Source of the DNA: Rhodovibrio salinarum DSM 9154
GTDB lineage: Bacteria > Pseudomonadota > Alphaproteobacteria > Kiloniellales > Rhodovibrionaceae
Direction: 5' to 3'
Assembly (NCBI RefSeq): GCF_000515255.1
Contig: NZ_KI911559.1
Location: forward strand, 2,211,660 to 2,243,659
Length of the DNA: 32,000 bases
Positions 6,866 to 22,303 of the stretch are shown here, one piece after another (position 1 is the stretch's first letter; each line of letters begins with the position of its first letter). A program made the translations under genes and the position numbers. The notes beneath the pieces are model-generated. The model saw only the letters and a program-made list of their open reading frames with translations. It had not been told where the DNA came from and ran no database searches.

Positions 6866-7048
6866 CGCCCGAGTAACCCCCTGAAATTCCAAGCTTCTCG
6901 CCAAGCGTTAACCCTCGAGGGCCGCGGTTTTCCGCGATTCCCGGCGATTGTGCCACACGGCTGTGCCACTGGGGTGTGCGCTCGGAACGTGCCACCCGCG
7001 CTGGGAATCCCGGCCAAACCGGTCCTCGTGTGCGCGAGGAGCCACGCC

Positions 7049-9067
7049 GTGGCGAGACACGCTCACGTCTATCGCCGGCAAGCTGTCTACTGGTGGCGCC
7101 GGCGGATCCCGAAACACCTGCGCCAACTTTTTTCGACCTCGGAGATCCGCGTCTCTTTGCGAGCCCATATGGCCGGGGAGGCGGCGACCCGGGCGGCAAG
7201 GCTCCGGGTGATCACCGACCTCGCTTTCCAGGACCTGGAGCGAGCCGTGACGACCGGACTGACCCTGCCAGACCAGACATTCGACCAGCTGGTAAACCAG
7301 CTGGTGCAGGACGAGCTCGATCGCTGCGAGCGCGAGCGCGAGCTCGCGGGCCCACGCACCGAGGCCGACATCCAGCAGGCCGTCCTCGACCATCAGCGCC
7401 AGCGCGCCCGCCTGCAGCAGGCGTTGCGGTACAACGTTTACGCGGACCTTGAAGACCAGCTCGCACCAGCCATCGAAGCCGTCCAGGACGTCGCAACGGA
7501 GTCCGATCTGGCCGTCTTGCAGCGGCGCGCCGCCCGGGGACTGATGGACGCGGCGGAGATCAACGAAGCGCGCGAACAGGGCATTTACAGCAGGGAGGGG
7601 CGTGTCTCGGCCGTGGCCGCGAACGGTCCACACCTCAGTGCGCCCGTTTCCGGACCGCTGGACGGCGCGAGCTTTCAGACGCAGCGCGAACCGTCGCAGC
7701 CGAGCCAGCCGGCAGCGCCAGCGCCGGCAAGAACATCAGCGAGGAACGACGACAACGTCCTGACTTTGAAGCGCGATCGACCGTCGAGGTCGGGTTCGAC
7801 CTCGCCGTACGCGCCTGGACGCCCAAGGCGCCGTGGGGCCAATGTTGGCGCAAGCCCAACCGGTCCGCGTATTAGCGAGATCAAAGAAGCGTTCTTTGCT
7901 AAACAGACTAAGAATATGAAGCGCCACTATCGGGTCGCAATCGATTTGCTTCAGGACGGACTCGATGATGCGCTTATCTCTGATATCACACGTTCTACTG
8001 TTGTCGACGTGATTGTTCTGATTTCCCAGCTGCCCAAGGTCCACGGAAAGAGCGCGAAAGAGACTCTGCGGTTGCGCGAGCTCGTCGCTGTGACGAACGC
8101 CGAAGAGACGGCGGCCATCGAAGCGGCGGTACAGAGTGCACGGGATAACGGTGGTGATCGCAAGACGATCGCTCGTGCTCATCTTGAAGCCCGGACTGAG
8201 CGGCTCAAAGCGCAACAGTCGCTGCACAACCACCGTGCGAGGATCAACAGTTTTCTGACGTGGTGTCACAAGGAAGGCTATCTGCCGCAAGCCCTCCACA
8301 TCGATATCGACGACATCCCGCGCCAGGTCCGGGATGATGCGAGGAATCGGGATCAGAAGAAAGGTGCCCGTATGTGTTGGGGAAGGGATAAATTACAAGC
8401 ATTGCTGACCAGCAGCATCATGACTGACCCAAACAAAGACTTTGGCGATCCGATGTTCTGGGCGATCTTGGCCGGGCCTCATCAGGCGCCGCGTATGGAG
8501 GAATTTCTGCAGCTGGGCCCTGACGACATTGAGGTCCGAGAGCAGGTTCCGGTCATGCTGATCCGGCCGGGGCTCGGCGGGCATGCGAAGACCGATGCGG
8601 CCCGGCGCGTCGTTCCTATTCACCCTATTCTCATTGCGGCTGGGTTCCTCGAGTTGGTCGAGCAACGCCGAAGGGAGAAGTCGCATTGGCTGTTCCCGAT
8701 GTTGGACCATGGACATGACGGGCGCTTCAGCTCGATTTTCACCAAGCGTTTTTCCCGCTACCGCGAAGATGAAGGGCTTTACGATCCGGAGCGCGATTAC
8801 CACTCGTTCCGGAGTGATTTTCAGGAAACGCTTGAAGACGCCGACGTACCACCAAACGCGCGTAAGCGTATGATGGGTCACCGCGTCGAGGATATCACGG
8901 AAGGCAAGTATCGGAAGCGCGACTATCCGATCACCCGGAAGGCCGAATATATCAACCTCATTGACTATGGAATCGAGGTTGAGCGCGTGGATGGTATCCC
9001 GGTGGTAAAGCTTCGGGACACGGCACAGCCGTCGGGGCCTATGCCTGCCGACGAGGTCATGTCGTAG
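7049..9067 (+). CDS. int: Tyrosine-type site-specific recombinase / island integrase with long N-terminal region
   Basis: The C-terminal catalytic signature is present: Arg box APRMEEFLQL, Lys region GGHAKTDAARRVVPIHP, HxxR in DYHSFRSDF, and MMGH...GKYRKRDY. The N-terminal motif VYRRQAVYWWRRRIPKHL is typical of this integrase subgroup. The start is placed at the GTG at 7049, 8 nt after AGGAG. The ORF is open from 6950. Confidence 0.85.
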   Translation: MARHAHVYRRQAVYWWRRRIPKHLRQLFSTSEIRVSLRAHMAGEAATRAARLRVITDLAFQDLERAVTTGLTLPDQTFDQLVNQLVQDELDRCERERELAGPRTEADIQQAVLDHQRQRARLQQALRYNVYADLEDQLAPAIEAVQDVATESDLAVLQRRAARGLMDAAEINEAREQGIYSREGRVSAVAANGPHLSAPVSGPLDGASFQTQREPSQPSQPAAPAPARTSARNDDNVLTLKRDRPSRSGSTSPYAPGRPRRRGANVGASPTGPRISEIKEAFFAKQTKNMKRHYRVAIDLLQDGLDDALISDITRSTVVDVIVLISQLPKVHGKSAKETLRLRELVAVTNAEETAAIEAAVQSARDNGGDRKTIARAHLEARTERLKAQQSLHNHRARINSFLTWCHKEGYLPQALHIDIDDIPRQVRDDARNRDQKKGARMCWGRDKLQALLTSSIMTDPNKDFGDPMFWAILAGPHQAPRMEEFLQLGPDDIEVREQVPVMLIRPGLGGHAKTDAARRVVPIHPILIAAGFLELVEQRRREKSHWLFPMLDHGHDGRFSSIFTKRFSRYREDEGLYDPERDYHSFRSDFQETLEDADVPPNARKRMMGHRVEDITEGKYRKRDYPITRKAEYINLIDYGIEVERVDGIPVVKLRDTAQPSGPMPADEVMS

Positions 9068-9429: not shown

Positions 9430-10224
9430 ATGGGGCATGCCGAACCCGTATTCTTCCGGGGCTTACAAGACCGCGATGAGAGCGGTTTGCGGCGCCATGC
9501 CGGCGGAACCCATACCAGCCGGACGATTATGGTGCGGGAGCTCAGCCGCGTGCTTGAACTCCCTGCGCCGCCAGAAGACCGGGCAGGCTACGCGCATGCG
9601 ATCGTCGAGGAGAACCTGCTCGGCAAAGAAACGCATGCCACGCGCCGCCTGACCAACACGCGTCTTGGCGAACTCTATCTCCTGAATCCCGAGGTCCCGG
9701 CATTCAGGTTTATGCGCACGCTGGCACACCGGGAGCCTAAGGCAGTTCCGCTCCTTGCGCTTTTGCTTGCCCTGGGTCGTGATCCGCTTCTGCGTGCGAG
9801 CGCTCAGGTGGTGCTATCCCTGGACGAGGGTCAGGAGCTCTCGCGTGCCGCGCTACAGAAGGCCATTAAAGATGGTGCCGAAGACCGTCTGAAGCCTGAG
9901 ATTCAGGAGAAGGTTGCCCGCAACGTCGCGAGTTCCTGGACGCAGTCAGGCCACCTGACCGGCCGGACCTTCAAGACCCGTCGCTTGGTAGAGCCGCAAC
10001 CCGCCGCCGTTGTCATGGCCCTTTGGCTTGCGACTCAGGCGGGGTTCAGTGATACGGAGGCGCTCACCAGCGGTTGGACGATGGCGCTCGATTGCGGCTA
10101 TCGCCGCGCGCTCGACCTGGCGACTGCGGCAAAGCGTCTTCGGCTCCTCGATGTCTACGTCGCAGAGAACGTTGTCAGTCTGGACTTTGGACCACTCGAG
10201 AGACTTTCTGGCGGGCATAAATGA
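9430..10224 (+). CDS. brxA: BREX protein BrxA (DUF1819-like)
   Basis: It is the first gene of the operon and its stop overlaps the brxB start (ATGA). The pattern IVEENLLGKETHATRRLTNTRLGELY followed by a helical C-terminal half resembles DUF1819/BrxA. The identity rests mainly on position plus this loose motif match. Confidence 0.65.
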   Translation: MGHAEPVFFRGLQDRDESGLRRHAGGTHTSRTIMVRELSRVLELPAPPEDRAGYAHAIVEENLLGKETHATRRLTNTRLGELYLLNPEVPAFRFMRTLAHREPKAVPLLALLLALGRDPLLRASAQVVLSLDEGQELSRAALQKAIKDGAEDRLKPEIQEKVARNVASSWTQSGHLTGRTFKTRRLVEPQPAAVVMALWLATQAGFSDTEALTSGWTMALDCGYRRALDLATAAKRLRLLDVYVAENVVSLDFGPLERLSGGHK

Positions 10225-10778
10225 GCCGGTTGGACGACCTCGCAAAGCGCTACCGCCGCAACATCGAGTTGCCGTGGGACCGGTCAATTGCTGGGGCACA
10301 GCGGGTGATCACGTTGGTCTACGATAAAGACCTCGAACGTGCGCTGCGTGGCCGGATGGCGCTGTTCGAGACGGCTACGCAAAGGACTGGCGCACACTGG
10401 GCGCTGATCGATATCTCCGACTGCTTTCCCAGATGGTTGGCGAAAAACCGTTATTGCCAACATTATTTCGAGTATCCAGAAGATCTTGAGATCAAGCTAG
10501 AATCAAGCTTCGCGAAGTTCGTGTCGCAGGAGATCGAGGCGGGTCTGCAGCGCGATGACGTCGACGAGGACACGGTCGTTGGCCTGCTCGGGGTTGGTAC
10601 GCTGTTCGGTTTTGCACGGGTGTCGATCGTTCTGAACAAAGTCGAACCGGCGATCCGCGGCCGTTTGCTGGTCTTCTTCCCGGGGCAGTACGAAGACAAC
10701 ACTTATCGCCTGTTCAATGCTCGAGACGGATGGAATTATTTGGCCACGCCGATAACGCTTGGGGCCGAGGAGTACTAA
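10221..10778 (+). CDS. brxB: BREX protein BrxB (DUF1788-like)
   Basis: A 185-aa protein in the canonical second position, beginning LAKRYRRNIELPWDRSIAGAQRVITLVYDKDLER. It is translationally coupled on both sides, by ATGA at 10221 and TAATG at 10776-10780. Confidence 0.75.
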   Translation: MSRLDDLAKRYRRNIELPWDRSIAGAQRVITLVYDKDLERALRGRMALFETATQRTGAHWALIDISDCFPRWLAKNRYCQHYFEYPEDLEIKLESSFAKFVSQEIEAGLQRDDVDEDTVVGLLGVGTLFGFARVSIVLNKVEPAIRGRLLVFFPGQYEDNTYRLFNARDGWNYLATPITLGAEEY

Positions 10779-13700
10779 TGACGGAACTGAAGGATGTCCT
10801 GGAAAGGGATCCGACCCAGCAGCGTCTGGCCAATAACGGGCAGGCGCGGCTGGTGGCAGAGGAAAGTCATCAGCAAGTTCAACAAGAACTACGGGAAGAG
10901 CTGAAGAGCTTCGTCTGCGAAGGTCAGTACAAAGATGGGATCATCCGAATCCTGCAGAGCGTCGTGAACGGCGGCACGAACTTGCCCTGCGCCTGGGTGT
11001 CCGGGTTTTACGGCAGCGGTAAGTCGCATCTCATGAAGATGCTTTGGCATTTTTGGTTGAACACCGAGTTCGACGATGGTCAGACAGCGCGAGATCTCGT
11101 TCCCGAGCTGCCGGAAGATGTCTCGGTTTTGCTGCGGGAAGTAGATACGCTGGGCAAGAGGACCGGCGGGCTGGTCGCAGCCGCCGGATCGATGCCGAGC
11201 GGCGACACCGAGGCCGTGCGCATTACGGTCCTCTCCATCATCTTCCAGGGAGCCGGCCTCCCGGTGGAATATGCCCAGGGGTCTTTCTATTTGTGGCTCC
11301 ACCGCAAGGGCAAGCTTGAGGCGATCAAGTCTGCGGTCGCGAGCCGCGGTGAGGACTTCGACCAGGAATTGGAGGACCTCTATGCGAGTCCGGTCCTAGC
11401 CGAAGCGATAGCGGAAGAGATGCCGGATGTAGCGGGCAGCGCGCAGGAGGCGCGTAGCCTGATCCGGACCAAGTTCCCTCGGCCAAAAGGCGACATCACG
11501 ACACAGGAGTTCCTTGATCTTAGCCGGGCGGCGCTCAAGTCGGCTGGTCGCGACGGGCAAATCCCGCAGACCCTGGTCGTCCTGGACGAGGTCCAGCAGT
11601 ACATCGGTGAGTCGCAGGATCGCTCCGTCCAGATCAGTGAGGTGGCAGAAGCGCTGTCGAAACAGATGCAGGGCCGGGTCATGCTGGTCGGGGCCGGCCA
11701 GACTGCCCTGAACGCAGCGCCGAACCTGCAACGGCTGATCGCCAGGTTCACCGTGTTGGTCGCGCTGCGCGACGTCGATGTCGAAAAGGTCACCCGGAAG
11801 GTCCTGCTGCGCAAGAAAGCCTCCGCAGTCGGCGAAGTCCGGCAGGTTCTGGACACCTACGCGGCGGAAGTGTCCCGGCAATTGAGCGGAACGAAGATCA
11901 AGGAGCGCGTCGAAGACCGGGAGACGATCGTCGACGACTATCCGGTCTTGCCAGTGCGCCGGCGCTTCTTCGAGGAGTGCTTCAGGCAGTTGGACGAAAC
12001 CGGAACCCGGGCTCAGCTGCGTTCCCAACTGAGCATCCTGCACACGGCTCTCTACAAGCGCGCGGACCGGCAGCTCGGCGTCGTCATTCCAGCCGACGAG
12101 TTGTACGACGCGCTTGCCTCGGTCCTGGTGTCGACCGGCGTCCTTCTCCGCGACATCGACGAGCGGATCAAGAAGGCTCGTCAGGAAGATGGGGAATTAG
12201 CGGGGCGCATCTGTGCCGTGGTGTTCCTAATTAACAGCCTCAGGCGCGACGAGGGTTTGGACATCGGCGTGCGCGCCAACAAGGAGCACATTGCCGATCT
12301 GCTAGTGGATGACCTGAGCGCCGACAACGGCAAGCTGCGCAGCGACGTGGCCGAAACGTTGGAGAAGCTCAAGAATGGCGGCACCTTGATGCCGATGCAG
12401 GACGAGTACCGCCTGCAGACGCGTGAAGGTGCTGAATGGGACCGGGAGTTTCGCCAGCACTCGGGGGCAATCAATAGTGATCCCACCGAGCGCATAGAAG
12501 AGCGCCACCGCCGGATTTACGCGGCCTTCGACCAGCACCTCCGCAAGGTCGAACAGGGTATGCGCCACGGGGCGTCGAAACTCCAGCGCAGACTTGTCTT
12601 GCACACGCGTGAGGAGCCGCCAGAGGAAACGGACGCCATACCCGTCTGGGCGCGCGACGGCTGGAACGTTCAAGAGGCCAAGGTCCGAGACGACGCCCGG
12701 TCGGCAGGGAACGACAGCCCGACGGTGTTCGCGTTTATTCCGCGCCACCACGTGGAGTCACTCAAAGAAGCGATCGCGACGAAGCTTGCCGCGCAGAAGA
12801 CGCTGGATCGCAAGGGGCATCCGACCACGGCGGAGGGTCAGGATGCTCGGAAGAGCATGGAGAGCCGCCGAGACACGGCCGACCGCGAGGCCGGCCGCTT
12901 GATCAGCGAGATCGTCGGCAATACGCAAATCTTCCAAGGCGGCGGCAACGAGATCCACGGGCTCAGCCTGCACGAACAGATCGAACAGGCGGCTGAGGAT
13001 TCGCTGGACCGCAAGTACCCGCGGTTCAAGGAGGCCGACTCCGCGCACTGGGACAAAGCGTTCAAGCGCGCACGCGAGGGCGCCGACAACCCCTTGGAAC
13101 CGGTCGGCCATACGGGCGACGTGGACCGCCATTCGGTTTGCCAGGAGGTGCTGACGACCGTGGGCGCGGGCAAGGCCGGCACCGAGATTAGGAGACAATT
13201 GCAGGCCGAACCGCTGGGCTGGCCACGAGAGGCGATCGACACGGCGCTTCTTGCTCTGCTCCGCCGCGAATTCCTGACCGCTTGGCTAAACCACGAGGTG
13301 GCGACCCCGAATCAGCTGGATCACACCAAGATCGCCAAAGCGGTGTTTTACCGCACCAGCGTCACGCTGGGCATGAAGGACAAGCTCGCCCTAGTGAAGT
13401 TCTTTCAGAGGGTTGGCGTTGAGTGCGACCGCGACACCCTCGTGGCCCACTCCGGGAACTTCCTGGAGGAGGTCCGCCGCCGGGCCAAGGAAGCCGGCGG
13501 CGACCCGCCGCTGCCCAAGCCGCTGGATGCGCGGATCGTCGATGACCTAGAGCGTCTCTCCGGTAACGAGCGACTGGCAGAAATCCTCAACAAGTCGCAA
13601 GAGCTTGGCCAGCTGATCGACCGTGCCGGGACGTTGATAGAGCTCAAGCAGAAGCGTTTGCCGGCCTGGCAAACTCTCGAGCGGTTGATGGCTCATGCCG

Positions 13701-14230
13701 CGGGTCTCGAAACGGCCCAGGAGCCTCTGAGCGAGGCCGCGGCGATTCGCGACAACCGCCTGCTTCTCGAACGCGAAGACTACCTCTCAGGCCCCAAAGC
13801 GAGGCTGGCGGATTGTCTGCGCCAGCGGGTGGACGAACTGTACGGCCGTCACCTCGATACGGTTGAGAGGGCCATCGCAGACCTTGCGGAGCAGCCGCAG
13901 TGGCAACAGCTCACGGCCGAGCAGCAGGACGAGATCCTGCGTACGGTCAGGCTGATCCGCCCGGAAAAGCCGGATGTTGGGTCTGAAGACGCTCTGCTCG
14001 CCAACCTGCCGCGCTATCAAGCCGAAACGGTCGAGGCCGAAATCAGCGCTGTTCCAGAACGCGCCCGAAAGGCGCTGGAGAGCGCTGCGCGGAAGCTCGA
14101 GCCCACTGTGCGGCCCCTCAAGCTGGAGCGAGAGACGCTGCGCACGCAGGAAGAGGTGGACGACTGGGTCGAACGCACGCGCCGGCGCCTGGCGGAGGAA
14201 ATCGCGCAAGGCCCGGTTTTGGTGCAGTAA
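10778..14230 (+). CDS. brxC: BREX P-loop ATPase BrxC/PglY
   Basis: A 1150-aa protein with Walker A in GFYGSGKSHLMKM and a Walker B-like LVVLDEVQQY, followed by a long helical C-terminal region. The start at the ATG at 10778 lies behind GAGGAG. The track ORF from 10730 overlaps brxB. Confidence 0.88.
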   Translation: MTELKDVLERDPTQQRLANNGQARLVAEESHQQVQQELREELKSFVCEGQYKDGIIRILQSVVNGGTNLPCAWVSGFYGSGKSHLMKMLWHFWLNTEFDDGQTARDLVPELPEDVSVLLREVDTLGKRTGGLVAAAGSMPSGDTEAVRITVLSIIFQGAGLPVEYAQGSFYLWLHRKGKLEAIKSAVASRGEDFDQELEDLYASPVLAEAIAEEMPDVAGSAQEARSLIRTKFPRPKGDITTQEFLDLSRAALKSAGRDGQIPQTLVVLDEVQQYIGESQDRSVQISEVAEALSKQMQGRVMLVGAGQTALNAAPNLQRLIARFTVLVALRDVDVEKVTRKVLLRKKASAVGEVRQVLDTYAAEVSRQLSGTKIKERVEDRETIVDDYPVLPVRRRFFEECFRQLDETGTRAQLRSQLSILHTALYKRADRQLGVVIPADELYDALASVLVSTGVLLRDIDERIKKARQEDGELAGRICAVVFLINSLRRDEGLDIGVRANKEHIADLLVDDLSADNGKLRSDVAETLEKLKNGGTLMPMQDEYRLQTREGAEWDREFRQHSGAINSDPTERIEERHRRIYAAFDQHLRKVEQGMRHGASKLQRRLVLHTREEPPEETDAIPVWARDGWNVQEAKVRDDARSAGNDSPTVFAFIPRHHVESLKEAIATKLAAQKTLDRKGHPTTAEGQDARKSMESRRDTADREAGRLISEIVGNTQIFQGGGNEIHGLSLHEQIEQAAEDSLDRKYPRFKEADSAHWDKAFKRAREGADNPLEPVGHTGDVDRHSVCQEVLTTVGAGKAGTEIRRQLQAEPLGWPREAIDTALLALLRREFLTAWLNHEVATPNQLDHTKIAKAVFYRTSVTLGMKDKLALVKFFQRVGVECDRDTLVAHSGNFLEEVRRRAKEAGGDPPLPKPLDARIVDDLERLSGNERLAEILNKSQELGQLIDRAGTLIELKQKRLPAWQTLERLMAHAAGLETAQEPLSEAAAIRDNRLLLEREDYLSGPKARLADCLRQRVDELYGRHLDTVERAIADLAEQPQWQQLTAEQQDEILRTVRLIRPEKPDVGSEDALLANLPRYQAETVEAEISAVPERARKALESAARKLEPTVRPLKLERETLRTQEEVDDWVERTRRRLAEEIAQGPVLVQ

Positions 14231-14293: not shown

Positions 14294-17200
14294 ATGCAGA
14301 CGTTGACGAGAGAGCTGCGCCGCACCCTTGAAAACACTGTGCGAGAGGCCCGCGACACGGCGGAGGAGGGGGCCCGGAAAGCGCTCGATCAGCTCGGCGT
14401 GGCGGACAAGGAGGTGCCAGGGCACCTGAACGACGCCCAGCGGAAGCTGCGCAACCGCCTGCGGGCCCACGCCCGGCAGCTTGGCGACCGCCGCCGTCCG
14501 GACCGCAGTCAGGACGTTGGTCGTCTGGTAAGCGAGATCGCCTATGCCCACTGGCACCGGATGCTGTTCGCCCGGTTCCTGGCCGAGGCGGGTCTTCTGA
14601 TCGAGCCCGAGCACGAGCTGCCGCTGTCCTTGGAGGATGTCCGCGAACTGGCGCGCGAGACCGGTGAGGACTGGCTGGACCTCGCCGCGTCCTATGCCGA
14701 GCGGATGCTCCCGCAGATCTTCCGGTCCAACGACCCGGCCCTGGCGGTGACCATGCCGCGCGAGGTGCGCTCGCACCTAGAGGACTTGCTCAAGCAGTTG
14801 CCGGCGACCGTCTTCTGCGCGGATGACAGCCTGGGCTGGGTCTATCAGTTCTGGCAAGCCGACGAGAAGAAGCGGGTGAACGAGAGCCAGGTGAAGATCG
14901 GAGCCGACGAGCTGCCGGCGGTCACCCAGCTATTCACCGAGGACTACATGGTCCTCTTCCTGCTGCACAACACGCTGGGCGCTTGGTGGGCCGGCAAGGT
15001 GCTTGCGGCCGATCCGGAGCTCGCGCGCACGGCCCCGGACGAGGATGCGCTGCGCCAGGCATGTGGGCTGCCGGGGGTTGCGTGGACCTACCTGCGGTTC
15101 GTTCGCGACGAGCCCAATGAAGAGACTGGCGGAGAGGCCGGACCTTGGCGCCCGGCGGCCGGCACCTTCCCGGGCTGGCCGACAGCAGCGAAAGACGTCA
15201 CGCTGCTGGACCCCTGTATGGGCTCGGGCCACTTCCTCGTGTTCGCGCTGCCAATCCTGGTCGCGATGCGGCAGGCGGAAGAGGGGCTGTGTCTTGAGGC
15301 CGCGGTCACGTCGGTCCTGCGAGACAATCTGTTTGGCTTGGAGATCGACCAGCGCTGTACGCAAATCGCTGCGTTCAATCTGGCATTGGCAGCTTGGCGA
15401 ATGATCGAAGAGGTCACTGTTCTGCCGCCGCTCAACCTGGCCTGTTCGGGCTTGTCGATTAGCGTGTCGAAGCAGGAATGGATGAAGTTGGCCGACCGCG
15501 CGGTTCGTCAGGCGGATCCAGCGGCGAAGCAGGACATGTTTGGCAGCGAGCGGACGCTGCTGAACAGCGAGATCGATACGCGCATGCGTTACGGGCTAGA
15601 GCGCATGTATGACACCTTCGCGCAAGCCCCAACGCTTGGAAGTCTGATCGACCCAAGCAAGGTTGGGGAAGACATATTTGCTGCAGATTATGAGTCCTTT
15701 GCGCCTGTGGTGTCGCAAGCATTGGCCGATGGGAGTCACGATGTTGCAGAAATGGCGGTCGCCGCTCACGGATTGGCTAAAGCGGCAGAAATACTGTCGA
15801 AAAAATATGCCATGGTATCAACAAATGTTCCGTTTTTGAATCGCCAGAATCAAGGTAATGATCTTCGCACATTTTCAGAGATACGTTATGATATAGCCAA
15901 AGCGGAGTTGTCTACAACCTTTTATATAAGGGCTTCGGAGCTTACAGAAACGGATGGTGTTGAGGCGATAGTATTGCCGTCTAACTGGATGTACCAACCC
16001 GCTTATAGAAAATTCCGTGAATATGTTCTCGAAAATCATACAATAAAAGCCCTTGCACAATTGGGCTCCGGAGCGTTCGATGGGATCAGTGGAGAAAGGG
16101 TTCAGGCCTCTCTCGTTATCACAAGCATAAACAAGCAAAATCAAAACGGAACGTTTTTGGTATTTGATGCATCAGAAGAAAAGGACTCTTCTGAAAAACG
16201 AACTACATTGCTAAAAGATAATCTGAAGTTTCAGATCCAAAACAAACAAAAAACCAACCCAGATAAACGTATTATTATTTCTCAAATAGATTTTAATGAA
16301 CTATTGTTGGACCATGCGGACAGTTTGACTGGCACACGCACTGGCGATCGGCATCGATTGGTGAGATGTTTTTGGGAGTTGCCACGGAAAAAGACTTCCT
16401 GGGAACCATTTTTCGGTAGTCCAGAGGGGAATAGATATTACTCCGGGCGCGAGTATTTAGTGTATTGGCCCGAGAGCGAAGGCGGTATTCACGAGCTTAA
16501 TGAGAAAGGTATTGCTAGCATTCAGGGAGAAAATGCGTGGGGAAGGTATGGTATTTGCATCCGGCTTATGGGGGATTTGGACGCGACAATTTATACCGGA
16601 GAAATTTTTGATAACAACATTGGGGTTGTCTGGGCGAAAAATAAAGAAGAGCTACCAGCAATTTGGTCATACATTAAATCGGATTCATATACGCAAGCTC
16701 TTCGAAAAATAGACTCCAAGCTTAATCTTACAACATCTACTTTACTGAAGGTTCCTTTTGATTCATCATATTGGCGGGCGGTAGCCGCGGCAAAATATCC
16801 GGATGGTTTGCCGGCGCCGTATTCAGAAGATCCGTCGCAGTGGCTGTTTTGCGGGGATCCGAAGGGGGCGGAAGATCCCTTGCAAGTGGCCGTAGCTCGC
16901 CTTCTCGGTTACCGATGGCCTCGGCAAACAGGCGCCAGCTTTAAGGACTGCCCTGCAATCGATGAGCCGGACGGTCTTGAGAGTCACGCCGATGCAGACG
17001 GGATCGTATGCCTGAATGCCGTTCAGGGAGAGCAGTCTGCTAGCGACCGCCTGCGGAAACTCTTGCGCGATGCTTACGGTGATGCCTGGAGCCCTGGAAG
17101 CCTTGACGAACTGTTAGACACGCATGGGCAGGGCGCGAACGATCTCCATACTTACTTGCGCGACAAGTTCTTCGTCCGGCATCTGAGGTTGTTCCAGCAG

Positions 17201-17812
17201 CGGCCGTTCGTCTGGCACGTCTGGGACGGGCGTAAGGATGGCTTTCATGCGCTTGTGAATTACCACCGGCTCGCAGGTTCGGACGGGCTCGGAGGTCGGA
17301 CACTGGACAAGCTGGTATTCACGTACCTCCGCGAATGGATCGATCGGCAGCAGGGCGAGGTCGACGCTGGCGAGCCGGGCGCAGAAGCGCGCTTCGCTGC
17401 CGCCCGGCACCTGTCCGACGAGCTGAAGAAGATTCGCGACGGCGAGCCTCCGTATGACCTCTTCATCCGCTGGAAGCCGCTCCACCGGCAGCCGATCGGC
17501 TGGGAGCCAGACGTCAACGACGGCGTGCGCTTGAACATCCGGCCATTCATGACCGCGCGTCCCCGGGAGGCAAGTCGCAAAAACGAGTGCATCCTGCGCG
17601 AGCGGCCCAACATCAAGTTAGACAAGGCCGACCGCGGTAAGGAGCCGACACGGCCGCGGGAAGATTGCCCGTGGTTCTACAGCTGGGATGGAGAGACTAT
17701 GGACTTTATGGGCGGTGAAGATTTCGACGGCAAGCGCTGGAACGCCCTGCATTACACGCGCGCAGCCAAACAGGCCGCCCGCGACCGCAAGGCCAACCGG
17801 GCCGCTGAATGA
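14294..17812 (+). CDS. pglX: BREX N6-adenine DNA methyltransferase PglX
   Basis: A 1172-aa protein. The SAM-binding motif I is LLDPCMGSGHFLV. The motif IV variant is STNVPF. The size and the position between brxC and pglZ are canonical for type 1 BREX. Confidence 0.9.
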   Translation: MQTLTRELRRTLENTVREARDTAEEGARKALDQLGVADKEVPGHLNDAQRKLRNRLRAHARQLGDRRRPDRSQDVGRLVSEIAYAHWHRMLFARFLAEAGLLIEPEHELPLSLEDVRELARETGEDWLDLAASYAERMLPQIFRSNDPALAVTMPREVRSHLEDLLKQLPATVFCADDSLGWVYQFWQADEKKRVNESQVKIGADELPAVTQLFTEDYMVLFLLHNTLGAWWAGKVLAADPELARTAPDEDALRQACGLPGVAWTYLRFVRDEPNEETGGEAGPWRPAAGTFPGWPTAAKDVTLLDPCMGSGHFLVFALPILVAMRQAEEGLCLEAAVTSVLRDNLFGLEIDQRCTQIAAFNLALAAWRMIEEVTVLPPLNLACSGLSISVSKQEWMKLADRAVRQADPAAKQDMFGSERTLLNSEIDTRMRYGLERMYDTFAQAPTLGSLIDPSKVGEDIFAADYESFAPVVSQALADGSHDVAEMAVAAHGLAKAAEILSKKYAMVSTNVPFLNRQNQGNDLRTFSEIRYDIAKAELSTTFYIRASELTETDGVEAIVLPSNWMYQPAYRKFREYVLENHTIKALAQLGSGAFDGISGERVQASLVITSINKQNQNGTFLVFDASEEKDSSEKRTTLLKDNLKFQIQNKQKTNPDKRIIISQIDFNELLLDHADSLTGTRTGDRHRLVRCFWELPRKKTSWEPFFGSPEGNRYYSGREYLVYWPESEGGIHELNEKGIASIQGENAWGRYGICIRLMGDLDATIYTGEIFDNNIGVVWAKNKEELPAIWSYIKSDSYTQALRKIDSKLNLTTSTLLKVPFDSSYWRAVAAAKYPDGLPAPYSEDPSQWLFCGDPKGAEDPLQVAVARLLGYRWPRQTGASFKDCPAIDEPDGLESHADADGIVCLNAVQGEQSASDRLRKLLRDAYGDAWSPGSLDELLDTHGQGANDLHTYLRDKFFVRHLRLFQQRPFVWHVWDGRKDGFHALVNYHRLAGSDGLGGRTLDKLVFTYLREWIDRQQGEVDAGEPGAEARFAAARHLSDELKKIRDGEPPYDLFIRWKPLHRQPIGWEPDVNDGVRLNIRPFMTARPREASRKNECILRERPNIKLDKADRGKEPTRPREDCPWFYSWDGETMDFMGGEDFDGKRWNALHYTRAAKQAARDRKANRAAE

Positions 17813-17879: not shown

Positions 17880-20243
17880 ATGTTGGAACGCGGCATGACT
17901 GAGCAGCCCGCTACGCTCCTGTCGGAACTCGCCCGGCGCTTGGCTCATGCGGCCGAGGTCCCGGAGGGTGAGGTGGAGCCCGCGGCCGTGCTGTGGCCGG
18001 ATTACGAGGCGCAGTGGCAGCCCGTGATCGCGGAATTGCGAGAGCACGTACCGTGGCTGTATCAGCTGGGCGATTACGATCGCGACGGCGTGGCCGAGAC
18101 CCTGACCGGACCGATAATATGGCTGAAGTGCGCGGTGGCGCGGGTGTTGAACGAGGTCTCGCCGCCCGCCGGGACGGTTCCGGTGATCTACCTGCCCGGG
18201 GTCAGCCGGGCGACGCTGCGTGACGCCGCGGGTTGCCCTCAGTGGCTTCAACCGATGGTCGAGCTGTGCTACCGCGGCAACGTCTGGCATCAGCGCAACG
18301 GACGCGACTGGACTGTCCAGGCCTTCCTGGAAGGCGAGCTGCGCCTTGATCTCGCGGGCGACAAGCGCACCCGCAAGGCGTTGACCACGCAGCTCGCCCG
18401 CGTGGCGCGTGAGCCGCTGACCACATTCGAGGGTCGCCGAGTCGACGGCGACCTGCTGCTTAGCCTCGACGTGCGCGATCCGGACGACGAGGTGCTGCGC
18501 TGGATGTGCGACCCCGACGGCTTCAGGAGGGCGTGCGACGGGGCCCATTGGAGCGCGCTGCGGGATCTTTGGCTGAAAGATTTCGCGTTCGATCCGGAGA
18601 CGGACGGGGTCGAGGGCGCCGCGGAGCAGTTGCTGTCACAGACATCCGGGCGGTGGCAGACGGTCTGGCAGCGGTTCTGCGGCAGCCCGAAACAGTACCC
18701 CCAGATGGCGAACGTCCTGAACATGCCGATCAAAGACCTGTTCCCCAACCAACGGAACCGCCATCCGGGCCTGAACGAGAAAGACGAAGGCCGGCTTCAA
18801 ACGGAGCTCGAAAACGCGGTCGACCTTGAGCATACAGACGCCTGTGAAAAGGTGATCGCCCTCCGCAAAGCGCACGCCGAGCGGATGGACGCGCCATGGA
18901 TCGAATTGGGCGAGAGCCCATTGGCCGACGCATTGGAGCCCCTTGGCCGTCTTGCCGAGGGCGCCCGCCAGCGGGTTGGCGGCACCACACTGGCGGCAAT
19001 CGCTGACGCCTACGCGGAAACGCACTGGCAGTGCGATCGCGCGGCGCGAGATGCGCTTTCCAAGGCGCAGGCGCAGCCCGGTAGAGTCACTGGTCGGGTT
19101 ATCGCCCGCGTCGTCCAGGCCCTCTACCGGCCGTGGCTCGACCAGTCGGCGCGTGCCATGCAAGCCCTGCTAGACGGTGGGGCGCATATGGTGGCAGCGC
19201 GGTCCGCCGGCGCTGAGCCGGAACCTGGCACCTGCGTGCTTTTCATCGACGGGCTTCGGTATGATGTCGGTGTGTTGCTGCAAGAGCGGCTGGCATCGGT
19301 GAACTTGCAGGCTTCTCTCGCGCACCGGCTGGCGCCCCTGCCTACAGTGACTGCAACAGCGAAGGCTGTGGCTGCGCCTATCACTCTCGACGGTCTGGGC
19401 GTGGGCGACGACGCGTCGAGCTTCAGTCCGCAGGTCTTGGCCGATGGGCGCCCTTTGGACCAGCATCAGCTACGCAAGCTTCTGACTCGGCAAGGCGTGA
19501 CCTTGGTGGATCGCGATGACCCAAAGGGACCCGAAGGCGCTGGCCGGGTTGGCTGGTGCGAGACCGGGAAACTCGACAGCCTGGGCCACAGCCTCGGCGC
19601 GAGCCTGGTTCGGGAGATTCCAAATAGCGTAGACGAGGCTGTTGGTCTCGTGCAGACCTTGCTGGAGGCCGGGTGGCGAAAGGTGCGGATCGTCACCGAC
19701 CACGGCTGGCTGCTGGTTCCGGAGTCCTTGCAGAAAGTGGATCTCCCGAAGTCGACAGTTGACGACAAATGGGCACGCTGCGCCGCCGTCAAGCCGGGCG
19801 CCCAGCCGGGTGCGACGGTTTATCCGTGGTACTGGGACCCGCACACCAAGATCGCGAGCCCGCCCGGCGCTGGATCGTACTACGGCGGCGTTGCGTACGC
19901 CCACGGCGGCATAAGTCTGCAGGAGTGTGTCGTGCCTGAACTGGAGGTGTCGGCGGGCGAAGTAGCCGTCACAGTCAAGATCGCAAGCCACACCTGGCAA
20001 AATCTACGTTTCCGGGCACAGGTCGAGACGACCGCGTCCAGGCTGAAGGTGGACGTACGCCGCAAGCGGACCGCTCCCGAGACCAGCTTCGTGCAGACCG
20101 TCAAACCGCTCCGGGATAATGGCGAGGCCAGCCTGGTGGTCGCAGACGAGGAAGCGCTTGGCGAAGCAGCCTTTATTGTCGTCCTCGATCCTGACGGTCG
20201 GGTTGTTGCGTCCGAGCAGACCACGATCGGGGGAGACGCATGA
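17880..20243 (+). CDS. pglZ: BREX alkaline-phosphatase-superfamily protein PglZ
   Basis: A 787-aa protein with a PglZ-domain-like core: CVLFIDGLRYDVG, TATAKAV, GKLDSLGH and RIVTDHGWLL. Its stop overlaps the brxL start (ATGA at 20240-20243). An alternative start is the ATG at 17895. Confidence 0.88.
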   Translation: MLERGMTEQPATLLSELARRLAHAAEVPEGEVEPAAVLWPDYEAQWQPVIAELREHVPWLYQLGDYDRDGVAETLTGPIIWLKCAVARVLNEVSPPAGTVPVIYLPGVSRATLRDAAGCPQWLQPMVELCYRGNVWHQRNGRDWTVQAFLEGELRLDLAGDKRTRKALTTQLARVAREPLTTFEGRRVDGDLLLSLDVRDPDDEVLRWMCDPDGFRRACDGAHWSALRDLWLKDFAFDPETDGVEGAAEQLLSQTSGRWQTVWQRFCGSPKQYPQMANVLNMPIKDLFPNQRNRHPGLNEKDEGRLQTELENAVDLEHTDACEKVIALRKAHAERMDAPWIELGESPLADALEPLGRLAEGARQRVGGTTLAAIADAYAETHWQCDRAARDALSKAQAQPGRVTGRVIARVVQALYRPWLDQSARAMQALLDGGAHMVAARSAGAEPEPGTCVLFIDGLRYDVGVLLQERLASVNLQASLAHRLAPLPTVTATAKAVAAPITLDGLGVGDDASSFSPQVLADGRPLDQHQLRKLLTRQGVTLVDRDDPKGPEGAGRVGWCETGKLDSLGHSLGASLVREIPNSVDEAVGLVQTLLEAGWRKVRIVTDHGWLLVPESLQKVDLPKSTVDDKWARCAAVKPGAQPGATVYPWYWDPHTKIASPPGAGSYYGGVAYAHGGISLQECVVPELEVSAGEVAVTVKIASHTWQNLRFRAQVETTASRLKVDVRRKRTAPETSFVQTVKPLRDNGEASLVVADEEALGEAAFIVVLDPDGRVVASEQTTIGGDA

Positions 20244-22303
20244 GCGCCGCACCAGAAACGAAGGAAATGGACCCGCTGGACAGGGCCGCCGCGGACGCCT
20301 TCGACGGGTTTCTGGTGCGCAAGGACCTCGTGCGCAGCTACGCCCAGCAGTACCCGGTGCCGGCCTATGTGGTGGAGTTCCTGCTTGGCCGTTACTGCGC
20401 CAGCGTGGATCCCGAAGAAATCGCCGAAGGCCTGGAAATCGTCGAGAAGCAGCTCAAGGACCGCACCGTCCGGACCGGCAACGAGGAGCTGTTCAAGGCG
20501 CTAGCGCGCGACCGCGGGTCGGTGAAAATCATCGACGTGGTCAAGGCGCGGCTGGACGCCAAGAACGACTGTTACGTGGCCGAGCTTCCGAGCTTGAAAT
20601 TGCGCGAAGTTCGAATCGACGACGAGACGGTCCAGGACAACGAGCGTATCCTCACCGACGGCTTCTACGCCGAGGTGACGCTGTCCTACGACGCTGTCGT
20701 GGCGAAGCAGGCAAACGGGCGCCCGTTCGGGATTGACGCGTTACGCCCAATCCAGATGTCCAAGTCGGATGCGCTCAATGTGCTCGCGCGGGGCCGGCGT
20801 GGTTTCACCACATCGCAATGGATCGACTTCCTGATCCGCTCCACCGGAATTGAACCGGACAGCCTTTCGGAGCGAGCAAAGATCGTCGCACTCCTGCGAA
20901 TGGTCCCGTTCGTCGAGCCCAACTACAACATGGTCGAGTTGGGGCCCCGCGGGACTGGCAAAAGTCACCTGTTCCAGCAGGTCTCGCCGTACGCCCATCT
21001 CATTTCTGGCGGCAAGGCGACCGTCGCTAAGATGTTCGTAAACAACAACAGCGGCGAACGTGGGCTTGTGTGCCGCCACGACGTGGTGTGCTTCGACGAG
21101 GTGGCCGGTATCTCCTTCGACCAGAAGGACGGTGTGAATATCCTGAAAGGCTACATGGCTTCCGGTCAGTTTAGCCGGGGCAAAGAGAACATTCGCGCGG
21201 ACGGCTGCATCGTTATGGTCGGCAACCTCGATCTGGACTTGGAGCAGCAGCAGCGGGTTGGCCATTTGCTCCAGCCTTTGCCGCCCGAGATGCGCCACGA
21301 CACGGCTTTCATGGATCGCATCCATGCTTACGTGCCTGGATGGGATTTTCCCAAGCTGAACCCGTCCGATAACCTGACCTATCACTTTGGCCTAGTGAGC
21401 GACTTCCTCAGCGAGTGCTGGTCGCGACTGCGGAGTGAGAACCGAACGACCGACTTTCAGCGTGCGCACCTGGGCGGCGCCCTGAGCGGCCGCGACATCG
21501 AGGGTGTCCGAAAAACCTTCAACGGACTCGCCAAGCTGCTCTATCCGGATCCCGAAATGGAAATGTCCGACGAGGATCTGGAGTGGGCGCTTCGGATAGC
21601 GCTGGAGTGCCGGCGCCGTGTGAAGGAGCAGCAGAAGCGTGTATTTAAGAGTGAGTTCCGGAACACGCACTTCAGTTACACGCTGGACTTAGACGGTGCC
21701 GAGAATTTCGTTGCGGTGCCTGAACTCTACAGCGACGAAGCGATCGAAGCAGATCCGCTTCCTCCGGGGCAGGTATGGGCTGTGGGCGCAGCCAGCGAGA
21801 CGGAGCCTGGCCTTTATCGGATCGAAGTCACCTGTGGTCCCGGAAGCGGGGTTAAAATACTTAACCAACCGACGCCCCCTGCATTGCGCGAGAGCGTGAA
21901 GGTAGGCGAGCAGAACCTTTATGCCCGCGCGCGCGAGGTCGTTGGGGACCGTAACCCCCGCGAACAGGAATTTTCAGTCCAGATGCGTGCGATGGATAAT
22001 GATCGGACAGGTGCTGGGCTCGGTCTGCCTGTTCTGGTCGCGCTCTGCGGGGCTCTGATTGGTAAGAACAGCCGTGGCGGTACGATCATCGTGGGGTCCC
22101 TGAATCTCGGTGGATCCATTGAAATGGTGCCAAATCCTGTTCGTATCGCCGAACTCGCTGTCGATCGTCAGGCAGATACACTTCTCATGCCGGTTAACGC
22201 GCGGAAGCAACTCATGGACCTGCCTGACGATCTATGGACACGCGTCAGGATTGAATTCTTCAAAGATGCACCGGATGCGGTATTCAAAGCCCTGGAGGCG
22301 TAG
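20240..22303 (+). CDS. brxL: BREX Lon-like protease/ATPase BrxL
   Basis: A 687-aa protein with Walker A in GPRGTGKSHLF and Walker B in VVCFDEV. The C-terminal Lon-protease-like domain contains GAGLGLPVLVALCGALIGK and GSLNLGGSI. It occupies the last position of the operon. Confidence 0.88.
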   Translation: MSAAPETKEMDPLDRAAADAFDGFLVRKDLVRSYAQQYPVPAYVVEFLLGRYCASVDPEEIAEGLEIVEKQLKDRTVRTGNEELFKALARDRGSVKIIDVVKARLDAKNDCYVAELPSLKLREVRIDDETVQDNERILTDGFYAEVTLSYDAVVAKQANGRPFGIDALRPIQMSKSDALNVLARGRRGFTTSQWIDFLIRSTGIEPDSLSERAKIVALLRMVPFVEPNYNMVELGPRGTGKSHLFQQVSPYAHLISGGKATVAKMFVNNNSGERGLVCRHDVVCFDEVAGISFDQKDGVNILKGYMASGQFSRGKENIRADGCIVMVGNLDLDLEQQQRVGHLLQPLPPEMRHDTAFMDRIHAYVPGWDFPKLNPSDNLTYHFGLVSDFLSECWSRLRSENRTTDFQRAHLGGALSGRDIEGVRKTFNGLAKLLYPDPEMEMSDEDLEWALRIALECRRRVKEQQKRVFKSEFRNTHFSYTLDLDGAENFVAVPELYSDEAIEADPLPPGQVWAVGAASETEPGLYRIEVTCGPGSGVKILNQPTPPALRESVKVGEQNLYARAREVVGDRNPREQEFSVQMRAMDNDRTGAGLGLPVLVALCGALIGKNSRGGTIIVGSLNLGGSIEMVPNPVRIAELAVDRQADTLLMPVNARKQLMDLPDDLWTRVRIEFFKDAPDAVFKALEA

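What the first reader, a model, noticed from the sequence alone, without database searches (positions are those of the whole stretch)
15790..16770. Sharply bounded low-GC mosaic block inside pglX, covering motif IV and the presumed specificity region
Seen: hand counts on 60-nt lines give 70% GC at 14401-14460 and 57% at 15721-15780. GC then drops to 37% at 15781-15840 and 32% at 16201-16260. It returns to 60% at 16801-16860. The reading frame runs uninterrupted through the block, which covers residues ~500-825 (…YAMVSTNVPFLNRQ… to …LLKVPFDSSYW). Codon usage switches from GC3-rich to AT3-rich. Known: in gamma-class and type IIL/IIG-like methyltransferases the target-recognition region follows the catalytic motifs. 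BREX specificity resides in PglX. Inference: the central catalytic and target-recognition module of PglX was replaced by recombination with a donor of much lower GC. That would be a domain swap re-targeting the BREX recognition motif, recent enough not to have ameliorated.
Basis: partly seen in the sequence, partly recalled or inferred. Interest (0 to 1): 0.78.

Follow-up and report, generated by a model that had tools for sequence, protein, structure and literature searches.

The report
AT-rich swappable specificity cassette in PglX
The low-GC block is real and is the DNA-reading module of the BREX methyltransferase PglX, but almost every relative of this gene has a low-GC dip at the same place, so it marks a routinely exchanged cassette and not a datable recent import.

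Summary
The lowest-GC 981-nt stretch of the 32-kb window is 15789-16769 (GC 0.409 against 0.646 elsewhere, z = -6). It lies in frame inside pglX (14294-17812) of a complete type 1 BREX operon.

The block (aa 499-826) aligns to E. coli BrxX residues ~498-838. That span is the methyltransferase half after motif IV, the hinge and the whole target-recognition domain.

The swap idea holds for the gene family. Relatives with 93-100% identical flanking DNA fall to ~45% identity between aa ~505 and ~825. Flank and cassette identity are uncorrelated across 20,100 pairs.

The "recent import from a much lower-GC donor" reading is not supported:
- 70 of 80 homologous loci from many phyla have a significant GC3 dip over this region, including the nearest relatives, whose cassettes are only 27-33% identical to this one.
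- No donor exists in the databases searched (best 40-46% identity), and the nearest cassette relatives checked lie on high-GC contigs.

This is an orphan allele of a known kind of variable module. The dip scales with host GC and is absent in four hosts whose BREX regions are at or below 0.38 GC. I found no paper noting it, and its cause is unresolved.

The parts
14294..17812 (+). pglX (brxX): BREX-1 N6-adenine methyltransferase and specificity factor, 1172 aa
   Evidence: ORF. PADLOC PglX model PDLC02528 matches residues 1-1166 with 1443 bits. Pfam N6_Mtase and Eco57I. Motif I is LDPCMGSGHF at aa 305-314. phmmer hits PDB 8c45 and 9ewz at E 1e-43 to 1e-45. The Foldseek top hits are the same structures at E 1e-31.
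15788..16771 (+). Core low-GC block, aa 499-826: the exchangeable specificity cassette. It comprises motif IV NVPF (aa 511-514), the rest of the methyltransferase domain, the hinge and the target-recognition domain.
   Evidence: Maximum-likelihood breakpoints and the window-wide GC minimum. GC3 0.38. Aligns to BrxX 498-838. Only 34% mean identity to homologues against 61-66% in the outer N- and C-terminal segments. Same boundaries as the swap junctions in L093/L094 and L059/L060.
15623..15787 (+). Left shoulder, aa 444-498: conserved protein sequence with intermediate GC3 (~0.46). Possibly the outer part of an imported tract.
   Evidence: The GC3 two-breakpoint fit gives aa 444-941. GC1 and GC2 are host-like and GC3 is 0.46. 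The nearest relatives are the same as for the outer gene.
16772..17116 (+). Right shoulder, aa 827-941: start of the C-terminal domain (spacer-helix region), with intermediate GC3 (~0.58)
   Evidence: The family-mean GC3 profile has the same shoulders.
9430..14230 (+). brxA (9430-10224), brxB (10221-10778) and brxC (10730-14230), upstream in the same operon
   Evidence: Full-length PADLOC BrxA, BrxB and BrxC matches.
17880..22303 (+). pglZ (17880-20243) and brxL (20240-22303), which complete the six-gene BREX-1 set
   Evidence: PADLOC PglZ at 809 bits and BrxL at 941 bits. Pfam BrxL_ATPase and BrxL_N.
6791..9067 (+). tRNA-Gln (6791-6865) followed by a DUF6538/tyrosine-integrase gene (6950-9067): probable left end of the defence island that carries BREX
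   Evidence: ARAGORN. Pfam DUF6538 and Phage_integrase.

Best explanation
The block is the specificity cassette of PglX: the part of the methyltransferase domain after catalytic motif IV, the hinge, and the whole target-recognition domain. These are the parts that contact the 6-bp BREX motif. In this gene family the cassette exists as many deeply diverged alleles (~25-45% identical). They are moved between otherwise conserved pglX backbones by homologous recombination in the conserved sequences on either side: TNVP[YF] at motif IV on the left and KVPFD..W on the right. Tracts sometimes reach further into the flanks.

The window carries one such allele, with no close relative in the databases searched. 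By homology with E. coli BrxX it sets which 6-bp motif is methylated on the host and targeted on phage DNA. A different cassette therefore re-targets both functions together.

Low GC is a standing property of this cassette in hosts of mid to high GC. It is not a timestamp of a recent event here. The window's allele sits at the extreme of that distribution.

Shown: the anatomy, the homology, the family-wide dip and the cassette exchange in relatives. Inferred: that this particular copy arrived by such an exchange (tract perhaps aa 444-941), and what motif it reads.
For: - Block coordinates and codon shift.
- Complete BREX-1 operon.
- The block aligns to BrxX 498-838. Domain limits and DNA contacts come from PMC11842806 and PMC11341690.
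- The block is the family's variable region: 34% mean identity against 61-66% in the outer N- and C-terminal segments. It still keeps invariant residues V560, R575, D685, W694, E695, G718, G753, G769 and F822.
- Flank and cassette identity are uncoupled: Spearman -0.02 over 20,100 pairs, and 92-97% flank identity goes with 25-48% cassette identity.
- Junctions at nucleotide level: L093/L094 at aa ~505 and ~825, L059/L060 at ~512 and ~850. L029/L030 have a narrower swap (aa 572-800). L091/L020 share aa 333-1050 at ~90% DNA identity against ~70% elsewhere.
- The dip is family-wide. In 79 of 80 loci the cassette's GC is below its flanks' (the exception is +0.006). Mean change is -0.094 in GC and -0.20 in GC3.
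- 70 of 80 loci have a significant low-GC3 segment. Median limits are aa 501 and 850; the strongest cases run from 510-524 to 811-821.
- The cassette holds the lowest-GC 900-nt stretch of the locus in 56 of 69 loci, though it is 8% of locus length.
- Distant PglX genes show the dip too: Deinococcus, Azospirillum, Acinetobacter and E. coli plasmids.
Against: - No backbone relative closer than ~70% identity exists, so an exchange in this lineage is inferred from the family and not observed.
- The cause of the family-wide AT-richness is unresolved. If cassettes only circulated among high-GC hosts they should have become GC-rich.
- The shoulders (aa 444-499 and 827-941) have lowered GC3 but the same nearest relatives as the outer gene. 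That does not fit a simple import from a distant donor.
- The recognition motif and methylation activity were not measured.
- The structure model is only moderate overall: mean pLDDT 66 and pTM 0.37, though 70-89 over most of the block.
Confidence: 0.72

Rival explanations
1. One reading: one recent recombination in this genome replaced the module with DNA from a donor of much lower GC (~40%), too recently for the composition to have drifted toward the host's.
For: - All three codon positions are shifted (GC1 0.46, GC2 0.39, GC3 0.38), as expected for sequence long resident in a ~40% GC genome.
- The fraction of the AT-codon amino acids F, Y, M, I, N and K is 0.29, the highest of 81 cassettes.
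- The dip (-0.24 in GC, -0.43 in GC3) is at the extreme of the family.
- The shoulders differ from the host only at synonymous sites, as expected if conserved donor flanks came in with the cassette.
Against: - 70 of 80 relatives, including the nearest ones, carry unrelated cassettes with the same dip at the same limits.
- In L093/L094 both alternative alleles in a near-identical backbone are low in GC3, so low GC does not mark the newcomer.
- No donor or close relative was found in 5.8 billion clusters, 1.84 billion representatives, plasmids, phages or viral contigs.
- The top hit of each cassette search was fetched. They sit on contigs of 0.67 and 0.59 GC.
- The shoulders' closest relatives are the same high-GC clade as the rest of the gene.
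Confidence: 0.2
2. A region-specific steady state with no low-GC donor. Cassette alleles are too diverged to pair in homologous recombination or repair. They would therefore escape whatever keeps GC3 high in these genomes (GC-biased gene conversion or codon selection) and drift toward the AT-biased mutational equilibrium, while the recombining conserved flanks stay GC-rich.
For: - The dip scales with host GC and disappears in four hosts whose BREX regions are at or below 0.38 GC. Regression slope is 0.46. The cassette is flat in L. plantarum, L. salivarius, B. mycoides and Fusobacterium, and never clearly GC-richer than its flanks.
- The dip persists in cassettes that are as diverged as their backbones, for example L029/L033 and L071/L077.
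- In the one usable trio the cassette shows no excess of AT-to-GC changes (36 against 65 GC-to-AT). Its GC-to-AT rate per site is higher than in the flanks (0.30 against 0.21).
Against: - There is only one trio, the counts are small, and parsimony inflates GC-to-AT counts in GC-rich sequence.
- It does not explain why GC1 and GC2 and amino-acid composition are so strongly shifted in this window.
- GC-biased gene conversion in bacteria is itself debated (my own knowledge, not tested here).
- It does not exclude exchange, which is shown directly in relatives.
Confidence: 0.3
3. Assembly chimera: two pglX alleles from different organisms were joined through the conserved flanks during assembly.
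For: The junctions lie in conserved sequence where mis-joins are possible. The origin of the window is unknown.
Against: - The same architecture occurs in complete replicons of cultured isolates: Azospirillum lipoferum 4B p1, Deinococcus sp. NW-56 plasmid and A. argentinense CP032331.
- It also occurs in 70 of 80 independent assemblies.
- GC3 changes through graded shoulders, not one abrupt join.
- The frame and the invariant residues are intact.
Confidence: 0.03
4. The AT-rich stretch is kept for a role at the DNA or RNA level, such as an internal promoter, a silencer target, a translation pause, or phase variation by repeats or inversions.
For: The dip is positionally conserved across phyla.
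Against: - No excess of promoter-like sites: 3 found against 1.8 ± 1.4 in shuffles. Terminator-like sites are not enriched either: 1 against 3.8.
- No simple-sequence tracts in the block.
- No inverted or direct repeats or silent cassettes in 9000-24500.
- No alternative ORF over 89 aa in the block.
- The sequence itself is not conserved between cassettes; third-position identity is 0.15-0.4.
Confidence: 0.04

Closest known systems
PglX/BrxX of type 1 BREX (E. coli HS BrxX, PDB 9EWZ; Salmonella PglX, PDB 8C45)
   Same: - Six-gene operon and collinear domain order.
- Motif I GSG, and a motif IV at the same position.
- The TRD ends at the same aligned position.
[quoted passage not shown]
   Different: - Only ~20-25% identical.
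- This clade has N-V-P-[YF] in place of NPPY.
- The two structure papers and the BREX survey hold no occurrence of "GC content", and the two structure papers describe engineered TRD changes, not natural cassette exchange.
- The variable unit here begins at motif IV, so it includes the second half of the methyltransferase domain as well as the TRD.
MmeI-family type IIL/IIG enzymes
   Same: One polypeptide carries a gamma-class methyltransferase followed by a TRD that reads the motif. The structure papers call the fold and DNA-binding mode of BrxX MmeI-like. PADLOC REase_MTase_IIG matches residues 300-824. MmeI 5hr4 is a weak structural hit.
   Different: There is no nuclease domain. PglX has extra N- and C-terminal domains. 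It works inside BREX, not as a stand-alone restriction enzyme.
Exchange of target-recognition domains in type I restriction-modification HsdS subunits ("domain movement" and TRD shuffling)
   Same: Deeply diverged specificity modules lie between conserved segments that serve as recombination sites, giving new specificities on a constant backbone. I recall from my own knowledge, not tested here, that hsdS variable regions tend to be AT-richer than their surroundings.
   Different: It is a different protein and architecture: HsdS has two TRDs and no catalytic part. Here the exchanged unit includes catalytic motifs IV-VIII. No repeats or inversions are involved in this window.
Phase-variable pglX (switching by invertible or simple-sequence repeats, mentioned in PMC11341690)
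   Same: Variation concentrates on pglX and not on the other BREX genes.
   Different: There is no simple-sequence tract, inverted repeat, silent cassette or adjacent invertase acting on pglX here. Variation is between lineages, by allelic replacement.

Membership tests
Type 1 BREX system | Six genes brxA, brxB, brxC, pglX, pglZ and brxL, co-oriented | tested here: met
   Full-length PADLOC matches to all six, in order, 9430-22303 on the + strand. Pfam BrxB, PglZ and BrxL.
PglX/BrxX methyltransferase | Gamma-class N6-adenine methyltransferase motifs: motif I (D/E)PxxGSG, then motif IV NPP[YF] | tested here: met
   LDPCMGSGHF at aa 305-314 and TNVPF at aa 510-514. Motif IV is a variant, N-V-P-[YF], invariant in 27 clade members. 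It aligns to NPPY of 8c45 and 9ewz.
PglX/BrxX methyltransferase | Full-length homology and fold: N-terminal domain, methyltransferase domain, TRD, C-terminal domain | tested here: met
   PDLC02528 matches residues 1-1166. phmmer hits 8c45 and 9ewz in three collinear stretches. The Foldseek top six hits are PglX/BrxX at E 1e-28 to 1e-31. TM is only 0.31-0.40, and the model has mean pLDDT 66.
PglX/BrxX methyltransferase | Methylates the fifth adenine of a 6-bp non-palindromic motif, and the cassette sets the motif | not testable with these tools
   This needs a methylome (SMRT or ONT sequencing) or biochemistry. It is inferred from homology to BrxX.
Recombinationally exchanged specificity cassette | Near-identical backbones carry unrelated cassettes with sharp junctions, and cassettes are shared across diverged backbones | tested here: met
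   Met in relatives: L093/L094, L059/L060, L029/L030 and L091/L020. Family-wide uncoupling of flank and cassette identity.
Recombinationally exchanged specificity cassette | Exchange demonstrated in the window's own lineage | tested here: inconclusive
   The closest backbone is only ~69-71% identical in the N-terminal part, so there is no sister allele to compare.
Recently acquired foreign DNA (composition not yet drifted to the host's) | Atypical composition at all three codon positions relative to the host | tested here: met
   GC1/GC2/GC3 are 0.46/0.39/0.38 against 0.70/0.45/0.83. Observed GC is 0.409 against 0.562 expected from host codon usage.
Recently acquired foreign DNA (composition not yet drifted to the host's) | The feature is absent from relatives, or a donor lineage can be identified | tested here: not met
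   A dip over the same region is significant in 70 of 80 relatives, including the nearest. No donor: best identity 40-46%, and nothing in plasmids, phages or viral contigs.
Phase-variable pglX | Simple-sequence tract, or inverted repeats with silent cassettes and a recombinase acting on pglX | tested here: not met
   No such repeats. The only recombinase gene is the island integrase next to tRNA-Gln.

The most novel reading that the evidence does not exclude
The AT-rich cassette is not imported low-GC DNA. It is kept at a lower GC equilibrium because its alleles are too diverged to take part in homologous recombination or repair, while the conserved flanks, where crossovers occur, stay at GC3 0.8-1.0. 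PglX, and perhaps other specificity modules, would then be a natural within-gene experiment showing that recombination-linked processes and not mutation alone maintain high GC in bacteria. A sharp intragenic GC3 dip would also become a sequence-only marker for exchangeable specificity modules.
Probability: 0.25. Interest if true: 0.7.

Novelty: new member of a known kind. Interest (0 to 1): 0.4.

Why it matters
For this genome, the BREX system probably recognises a motif that cannot be predicted from any characterised relative, because the cassette is at most 46% identical to anything known. A methylome would add a new cassette-motif pair to the small set used to engineer PglX specificity.

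For the field, the exchangeable unit starts at motif IV and ends at the last residue of the TRD. It therefore includes the methyltransferase-domain loop that reads the sixth base. This may explain why loop-only grafts failed in E. coli BrxX (PMC11842806), and it suggests natural junctions for chimeras.

The compositional dip is strong and general enough to serve as a simple locator of the specificity module in pglX genes of mid- to high-GC hosts. It holds the lowest-GC 900-nt stretch in 56 of 69 loci. It is also a caution against reading a local GC dip as proof of a recent transfer.

Tried and rejected
- **Donor search.** I tried the block protein against 5.8 billion clusters and an exhaustive HMMER scan of 1.84 billion representatives. 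I also tried block DNA against plasmids, block protein against phages and viral contigs. Nothing exceeded 40-51% identity over partial matches. The top hit of each protein search was fetched (L081, L082); both are fragmented pglX genes on high-GC contigs.
- **Source genome.** The genome-contig scan returned no copy of the window's own genome; the best match was 58%.
- **First pass over the 80 loci.** It picked brxC instead of pglX in about half of them. I redid it with BLAST-guided ORF choice.
- **Shoulder phylogeny.** The shoulders' nearest relatives are the same as for the outer gene, so there is no incongruence to report.
- **Three-taxon polarised substitution test.** Only one usable trio (L007/L009/L010) was available, with small counts. 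It is suggestive and not decisive.
- **Shufflon, phase variation, internal promoter or hidden ORF.** All negative.
- **Literature.** The two PglX/BrxX structure papers, the 2026 BREX survey and three full-text searches turned up no mention of a GC dip in pglX. This is absence in the held library only.
- **Structure model.** The full-length model is moderate (pLDDT 66). I used it only to confirm fold membership, not domain geometry.
Full report
**1.

pglX is the ORF 14294-17812 (+), 1172 aa. In 120-nt windows, GC is 0.55-0.73 up to ~15720. It is 0.31-0.50 from 15780 to 16800 and back to ~0.62 by 16800-16920.

A scan of all 981-nt stretches of the window puts the minimum at 15789-16769. That stretch has GC 0.409, against mean 0.646, sd 0.039 and minimum 0.561 outside the block (z = -6). 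A two-breakpoint likelihood fit on the gene gives 15788-16771, aa 499-826.

| Segment (aa) | GC1 | GC2 | GC3 |
|---|---|---|---|
| 1-443 | 0.70 | 0.45 | 0.83 |
| 500-826 | 0.46 | 0.39 | 0.38 |
| 942-1172 | 0.67 | 0.45 | 0.79 |

With the window's own codon usage, the block's amino acids would give GC 0.562 and GC3 0.80. Observed values are 0.409 and 0.38. The drop is therefore part amino-acid composition and mostly codon choice. The fraction of the AT-codon amino acids F, Y, M, I, N and K is 0.30 in the block against about 0.15-0.21 in the outer segments.

One refinement concerns the edges. On GC3 the transition is stepped. Shoulders at aa 444-499 (GC3 0.46) and 827-941 (GC3 0.58) keep host-like GC1, GC2 and amino acids.

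**2. What the block encodes.**

The gene sits in a complete type 1 BREX operon. All six products give full-length PADLOC matches (Pfam).

| Gene | Coordinates |
|---|---|
| brxA | 9430-10224 |
| brxB | 10221-10778 |
| brxC | 10730-14230 |
| pglX | 14294-17812 |
| pglZ | 17880-20243 |
| brxL | 20240-22303 |

The operon lies in a defence island that begins at tRNA-Gln (6791-6865) and an integrase gene (6950-9067). The island continues with a GmrSD-like gene and Wadjet jetABC.

PglX has motif I LDPCMGSGHF (aa 305-314) and motif IV TNVPF (aa 510-514). phmmer aligns it collinearly to the solved Salmonella PglX (8c45) and E. coli BrxX (9ewz, 8zek) structures. Window NVPF falls on their NPPY, and window KVPFD (aa ~821-825) falls on BrxX ~835.

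In E. coli BrxX the methyltransferase domain is residues 211-650 and the TRD is 651-837. The TRD reads bases 1-4 of the motif, and the methyltransferase-domain loop 587-601 reads base 6 (PMC11842806). Salmonella PglX gives the same picture (PMC11341690).

The block therefore equals the second half of the methyltransferase domain from motif IV onward, the hinge and the entire TRD. Those are the parts that touch the recognition sequence.

An AlphaFold model built on a 27-sequence alignment is moderate overall (pLDDT 66) but reaches 70-89 over most of the block. Its best structural matches are the PglX/BrxX entries at E ~1e-31.

**3. The block is the family's variable region and has no close relative.**

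The best full-length homologues are 53-58% identical. Split by segment, mean identity is as follows.

| Segment (aa) | Mean identity | Maximum |
|---|---|---|
| 1-440 | 66% | 71% |
| 496-826 | 34% | 43% |
| 942-1172 | 61% | 65% |

The block is still homologous throughout. In a 27-sequence alignment it keeps invariant residues V560, R575, D685, W694, E695, G718, G753, G769 and F822.

Searching with the block alone found only 38-51% identity over partial matches in 5.8 billion clusters. An exhaustive HMMER scan of 1.84 billion representatives found at most 40%. The best within the family set is 46%, in L035. There was no match in plasmid DNA, and only ~22-25% identity in phage records. None of the viral contigs encodes a relative.

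I fetched the top hit of each of the two protein searches. They lie on contigs of 0.67 and 0.59 GC. No low-GC donor lineage is visible.

**4. The dip is a property of the gene family, not of this genome.**

A scan of one genome per species returned 80 homologous loci from Alpha-, Beta-, Gamma- and Deltaproteobacteria, Verrucomicrobiota, Acidobacteriota, Planctomycetota, Cyanobacteria and others. After choosing the correct ORF in each, I compared the aligned cassette with its own gene.

- Cassette GC is below flank GC in 79 of 80 loci; the one exception is +0.006.
- The mean change is -0.094 in GC and -0.20 in GC3.
- The window (-0.24 and -0.43) is at the extreme, next to its closest relative L001 (-0.23 and -0.46).

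Profiles in 20-codon bins show L001, L003, L002 and L031 dropping from GC3 ~0.9 to 0.3-0.5 at aa ~520 and returning at ~820. Their cassettes are only 27-33% identical to the window's.

Per-locus breakpoint fits find a significant low-GC3 segment in 70 of 80 loci. The median limits are aa 501 and 850. The strongest cases run from 510-524 to 811-821. In 56 of 69 loci of at least 9 kb, the lowest-GC 900-nt stretch lies in the cassette, which is 8% of the locus.

Distant PglX genes behave the same way.

| Host (replicon) | GC3 outside the cassette | GC3 in the cassette |
|---|---|---|
| Deinococcus sp. NW-56 (plasmid) | ~0.9 | 0.3-0.5 |
| Azospirillum lipoferum 4B (p1) | ~0.9 | 0.4-0.6 |
| Acinetobacter (plasmid) | ~0.5 | ~0.2 |
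| E. coli (IncY plasmid) | ~0.5 | ~0.3 |

The profile is flat in L. plantarum, L. salivarius, B. mycoides and Fusobacterium, whose BREX regions are at or below 0.38 GC. Cassette GC regresses on flank GC with slope 0.46.

**5. The cassette is exchanged by recombination in relatives.**

Over 20,100 pairs among 201 family members, flank identity and cassette identity are uncorrelated (Spearman -0.02). Pairs with 92-97% identical flanks have 25-48% identical cassettes. A few pairs share a cassette across diverged backbones, for example 0.77 flank identity against 0.91 cassette identity.

At the DNA level:

| Pair | Pattern |
|---|---|
| L093 / L094 (a metagenome contig and Azospirillum argentinense CP032331) | 93-100% identical outside aa ~505-825, ~45% inside; third-position identity 0.15-0.4; both alleles low in GC3 |
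| L059 / L060 | Same pattern, aa ~512-850 |
| L029 / L030 | Narrower exchange, aa ~572-800 |
| L091 / L020 | Share aa 333-1050 at ~90% DNA identity, against ~70% elsewhere |

The junctions coincide with conserved patches: TNVP[YF] on the left and KVPFD..W on the right. They also coincide with the window's block limits.

**6.

That inference was that the low GC marks a recent event in this genome with a much lower-GC donor. In L093/L094 both alternative alleles are low-GC, so low GC does not identify the newcomer.

Some features of the window still fit a lower-GC history for this allele. It has the strongest AT-type amino-acid bias of 81 cassettes, and its shoulders are shifted only at synonymous sites. 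However, the shoulders' nearest relatives are the same high-GC clade as the rest of the gene. With no backbone relative above ~70% identity, the event cannot be dated or even observed directly.

**7. Why the cassette is AT-rich everywhere remains open.**

There are two readings.

- **(a) Mobile pool.** Cassettes belong to a widely circulating gene pool that is AT-richer than its hosts, as acquired DNA generally is (my own knowledge). They are replaced faster than their composition drifts toward the host's.
- **(b) Local steady state.** Cassettes are too diverged to pair in homologous recombination. They would escape the recombination-linked or selective forces that keep GC3 high, and settle at a lower equilibrium.

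Three observations lean toward (b).

- The cassette's GC is at or below its flanks', so the shift runs one way.
- The dip disappears in the four low-GC hosts sampled.
- It persists in cassettes as diverged as their backbones.

One three-taxon test showed no excess of AT-to-GC changes in the cassette (36 AT-to-GC against 65 GC-to-AT; flanks 59 against 148). The counts are small and parsimony is biased in GC-rich sequence. I rate (b) at about 0.25-0.3.

**8. Other readings checked and rejected.**

- No repeats, silent cassettes or simple-sequence tracts that could drive phase variation.
- No excess of promoter-like sites and no competing ORF.
- An assembly chimera is unlikely. The same architecture occurs in closed replicons of isolates and in most independent assemblies.

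**9. Novelty and interest.**

This is a new, orphan allele of a known kind of variable module: the PglX/BrxX specificity region, whose variability and role in specificity are published. I did not find the family-wide compositional dip or the natural junctions at motif IV and the TRD end described in the held literature. Both are useful and modestly surprising, but they are not a new kind of system. Interest is 0.4.

Noticed in passing
window 6791-9067: tRNA-Gln is followed directly by a 705-aa DUF6538 + tyrosine-integrase gene. GC falls from ~0.69 to ~0.57 here, so this is probably the left boundary of an integrated defence island.
   Followed up: partly
window 22415-31742: More defence genes lie downstream of BREX: a GmrSD-like gene on the minus strand (PADLOC HEC-05, 703 bits), an unassigned 212-aa ORF (24196-24834), and Wadjet jetA (25621-27294), jetB (27285-28166) and jetC (28179-31742). 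jetD would lie beyond the window.
   Followed up: partly
window 10730-10790: The brxC ORF as listed starts 49 nt inside brxB, and the PADLOC BrxC match begins at residue 21. The true start codon may lie further downstream.
   Followed up: no
window 15823-15834 (aa 511-514) and alignment A1: Motif IV of this PglX clade is N-V-P-[YF]. N511, V512 and P513 are invariant in 27 sequences. The E. coli and Salmonella enzymes have the canonical NPPY.
   Followed up: partly
L091, L093, L094 (positions 1-1500 and after ~5000); L092 (after ~5000); L084; L086: Relatives carry different genes beside pglX. L091, L093 and L094 have an AAA_21/DUF2813 ATPase plus DUF4276 upstream. Downstream there is an AIPR gene (L092, L094) or an SMC_N-like gene (L091). 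Deinococcus (L084) has a UvrD helicase before pglX and HNH plus DarT after it. The E. coli IncY plasmid (L086) has DUF262 between brxC and pglX. The pglX neighbourhood seems to be a hotspot for embedded accessory defence genes.
   Followed up: no
L001, L003, L043 (pglX conserved parts against the locus flanks): The conserved parts of pglX are GC-richer than the neighbouring ~8 kb: 0.72 against 0.63 in L001, and 0.75 against 0.63 in L043. The gene may therefore combine an elevated-GC backbone with a depressed-GC cassette.
   Followed up: no
L081, L082: The nearest relatives of the block come from assemblies in which pglX is split into several short called genes. These are probably frameshifted long-read assemblies or pseudogenes.
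   Followed up: no
window 16319-16570 (aa ~676-760): Inside the block a sub-segment has higher GC (0.47-0.52, GC3 ~0.5) than its neighbours (GC 0.30-0.39). The L029/L030 pair shows that sub-cassette exchanges occur (aa 572-800), so the block may itself be mosaic.
   Followed up: partly
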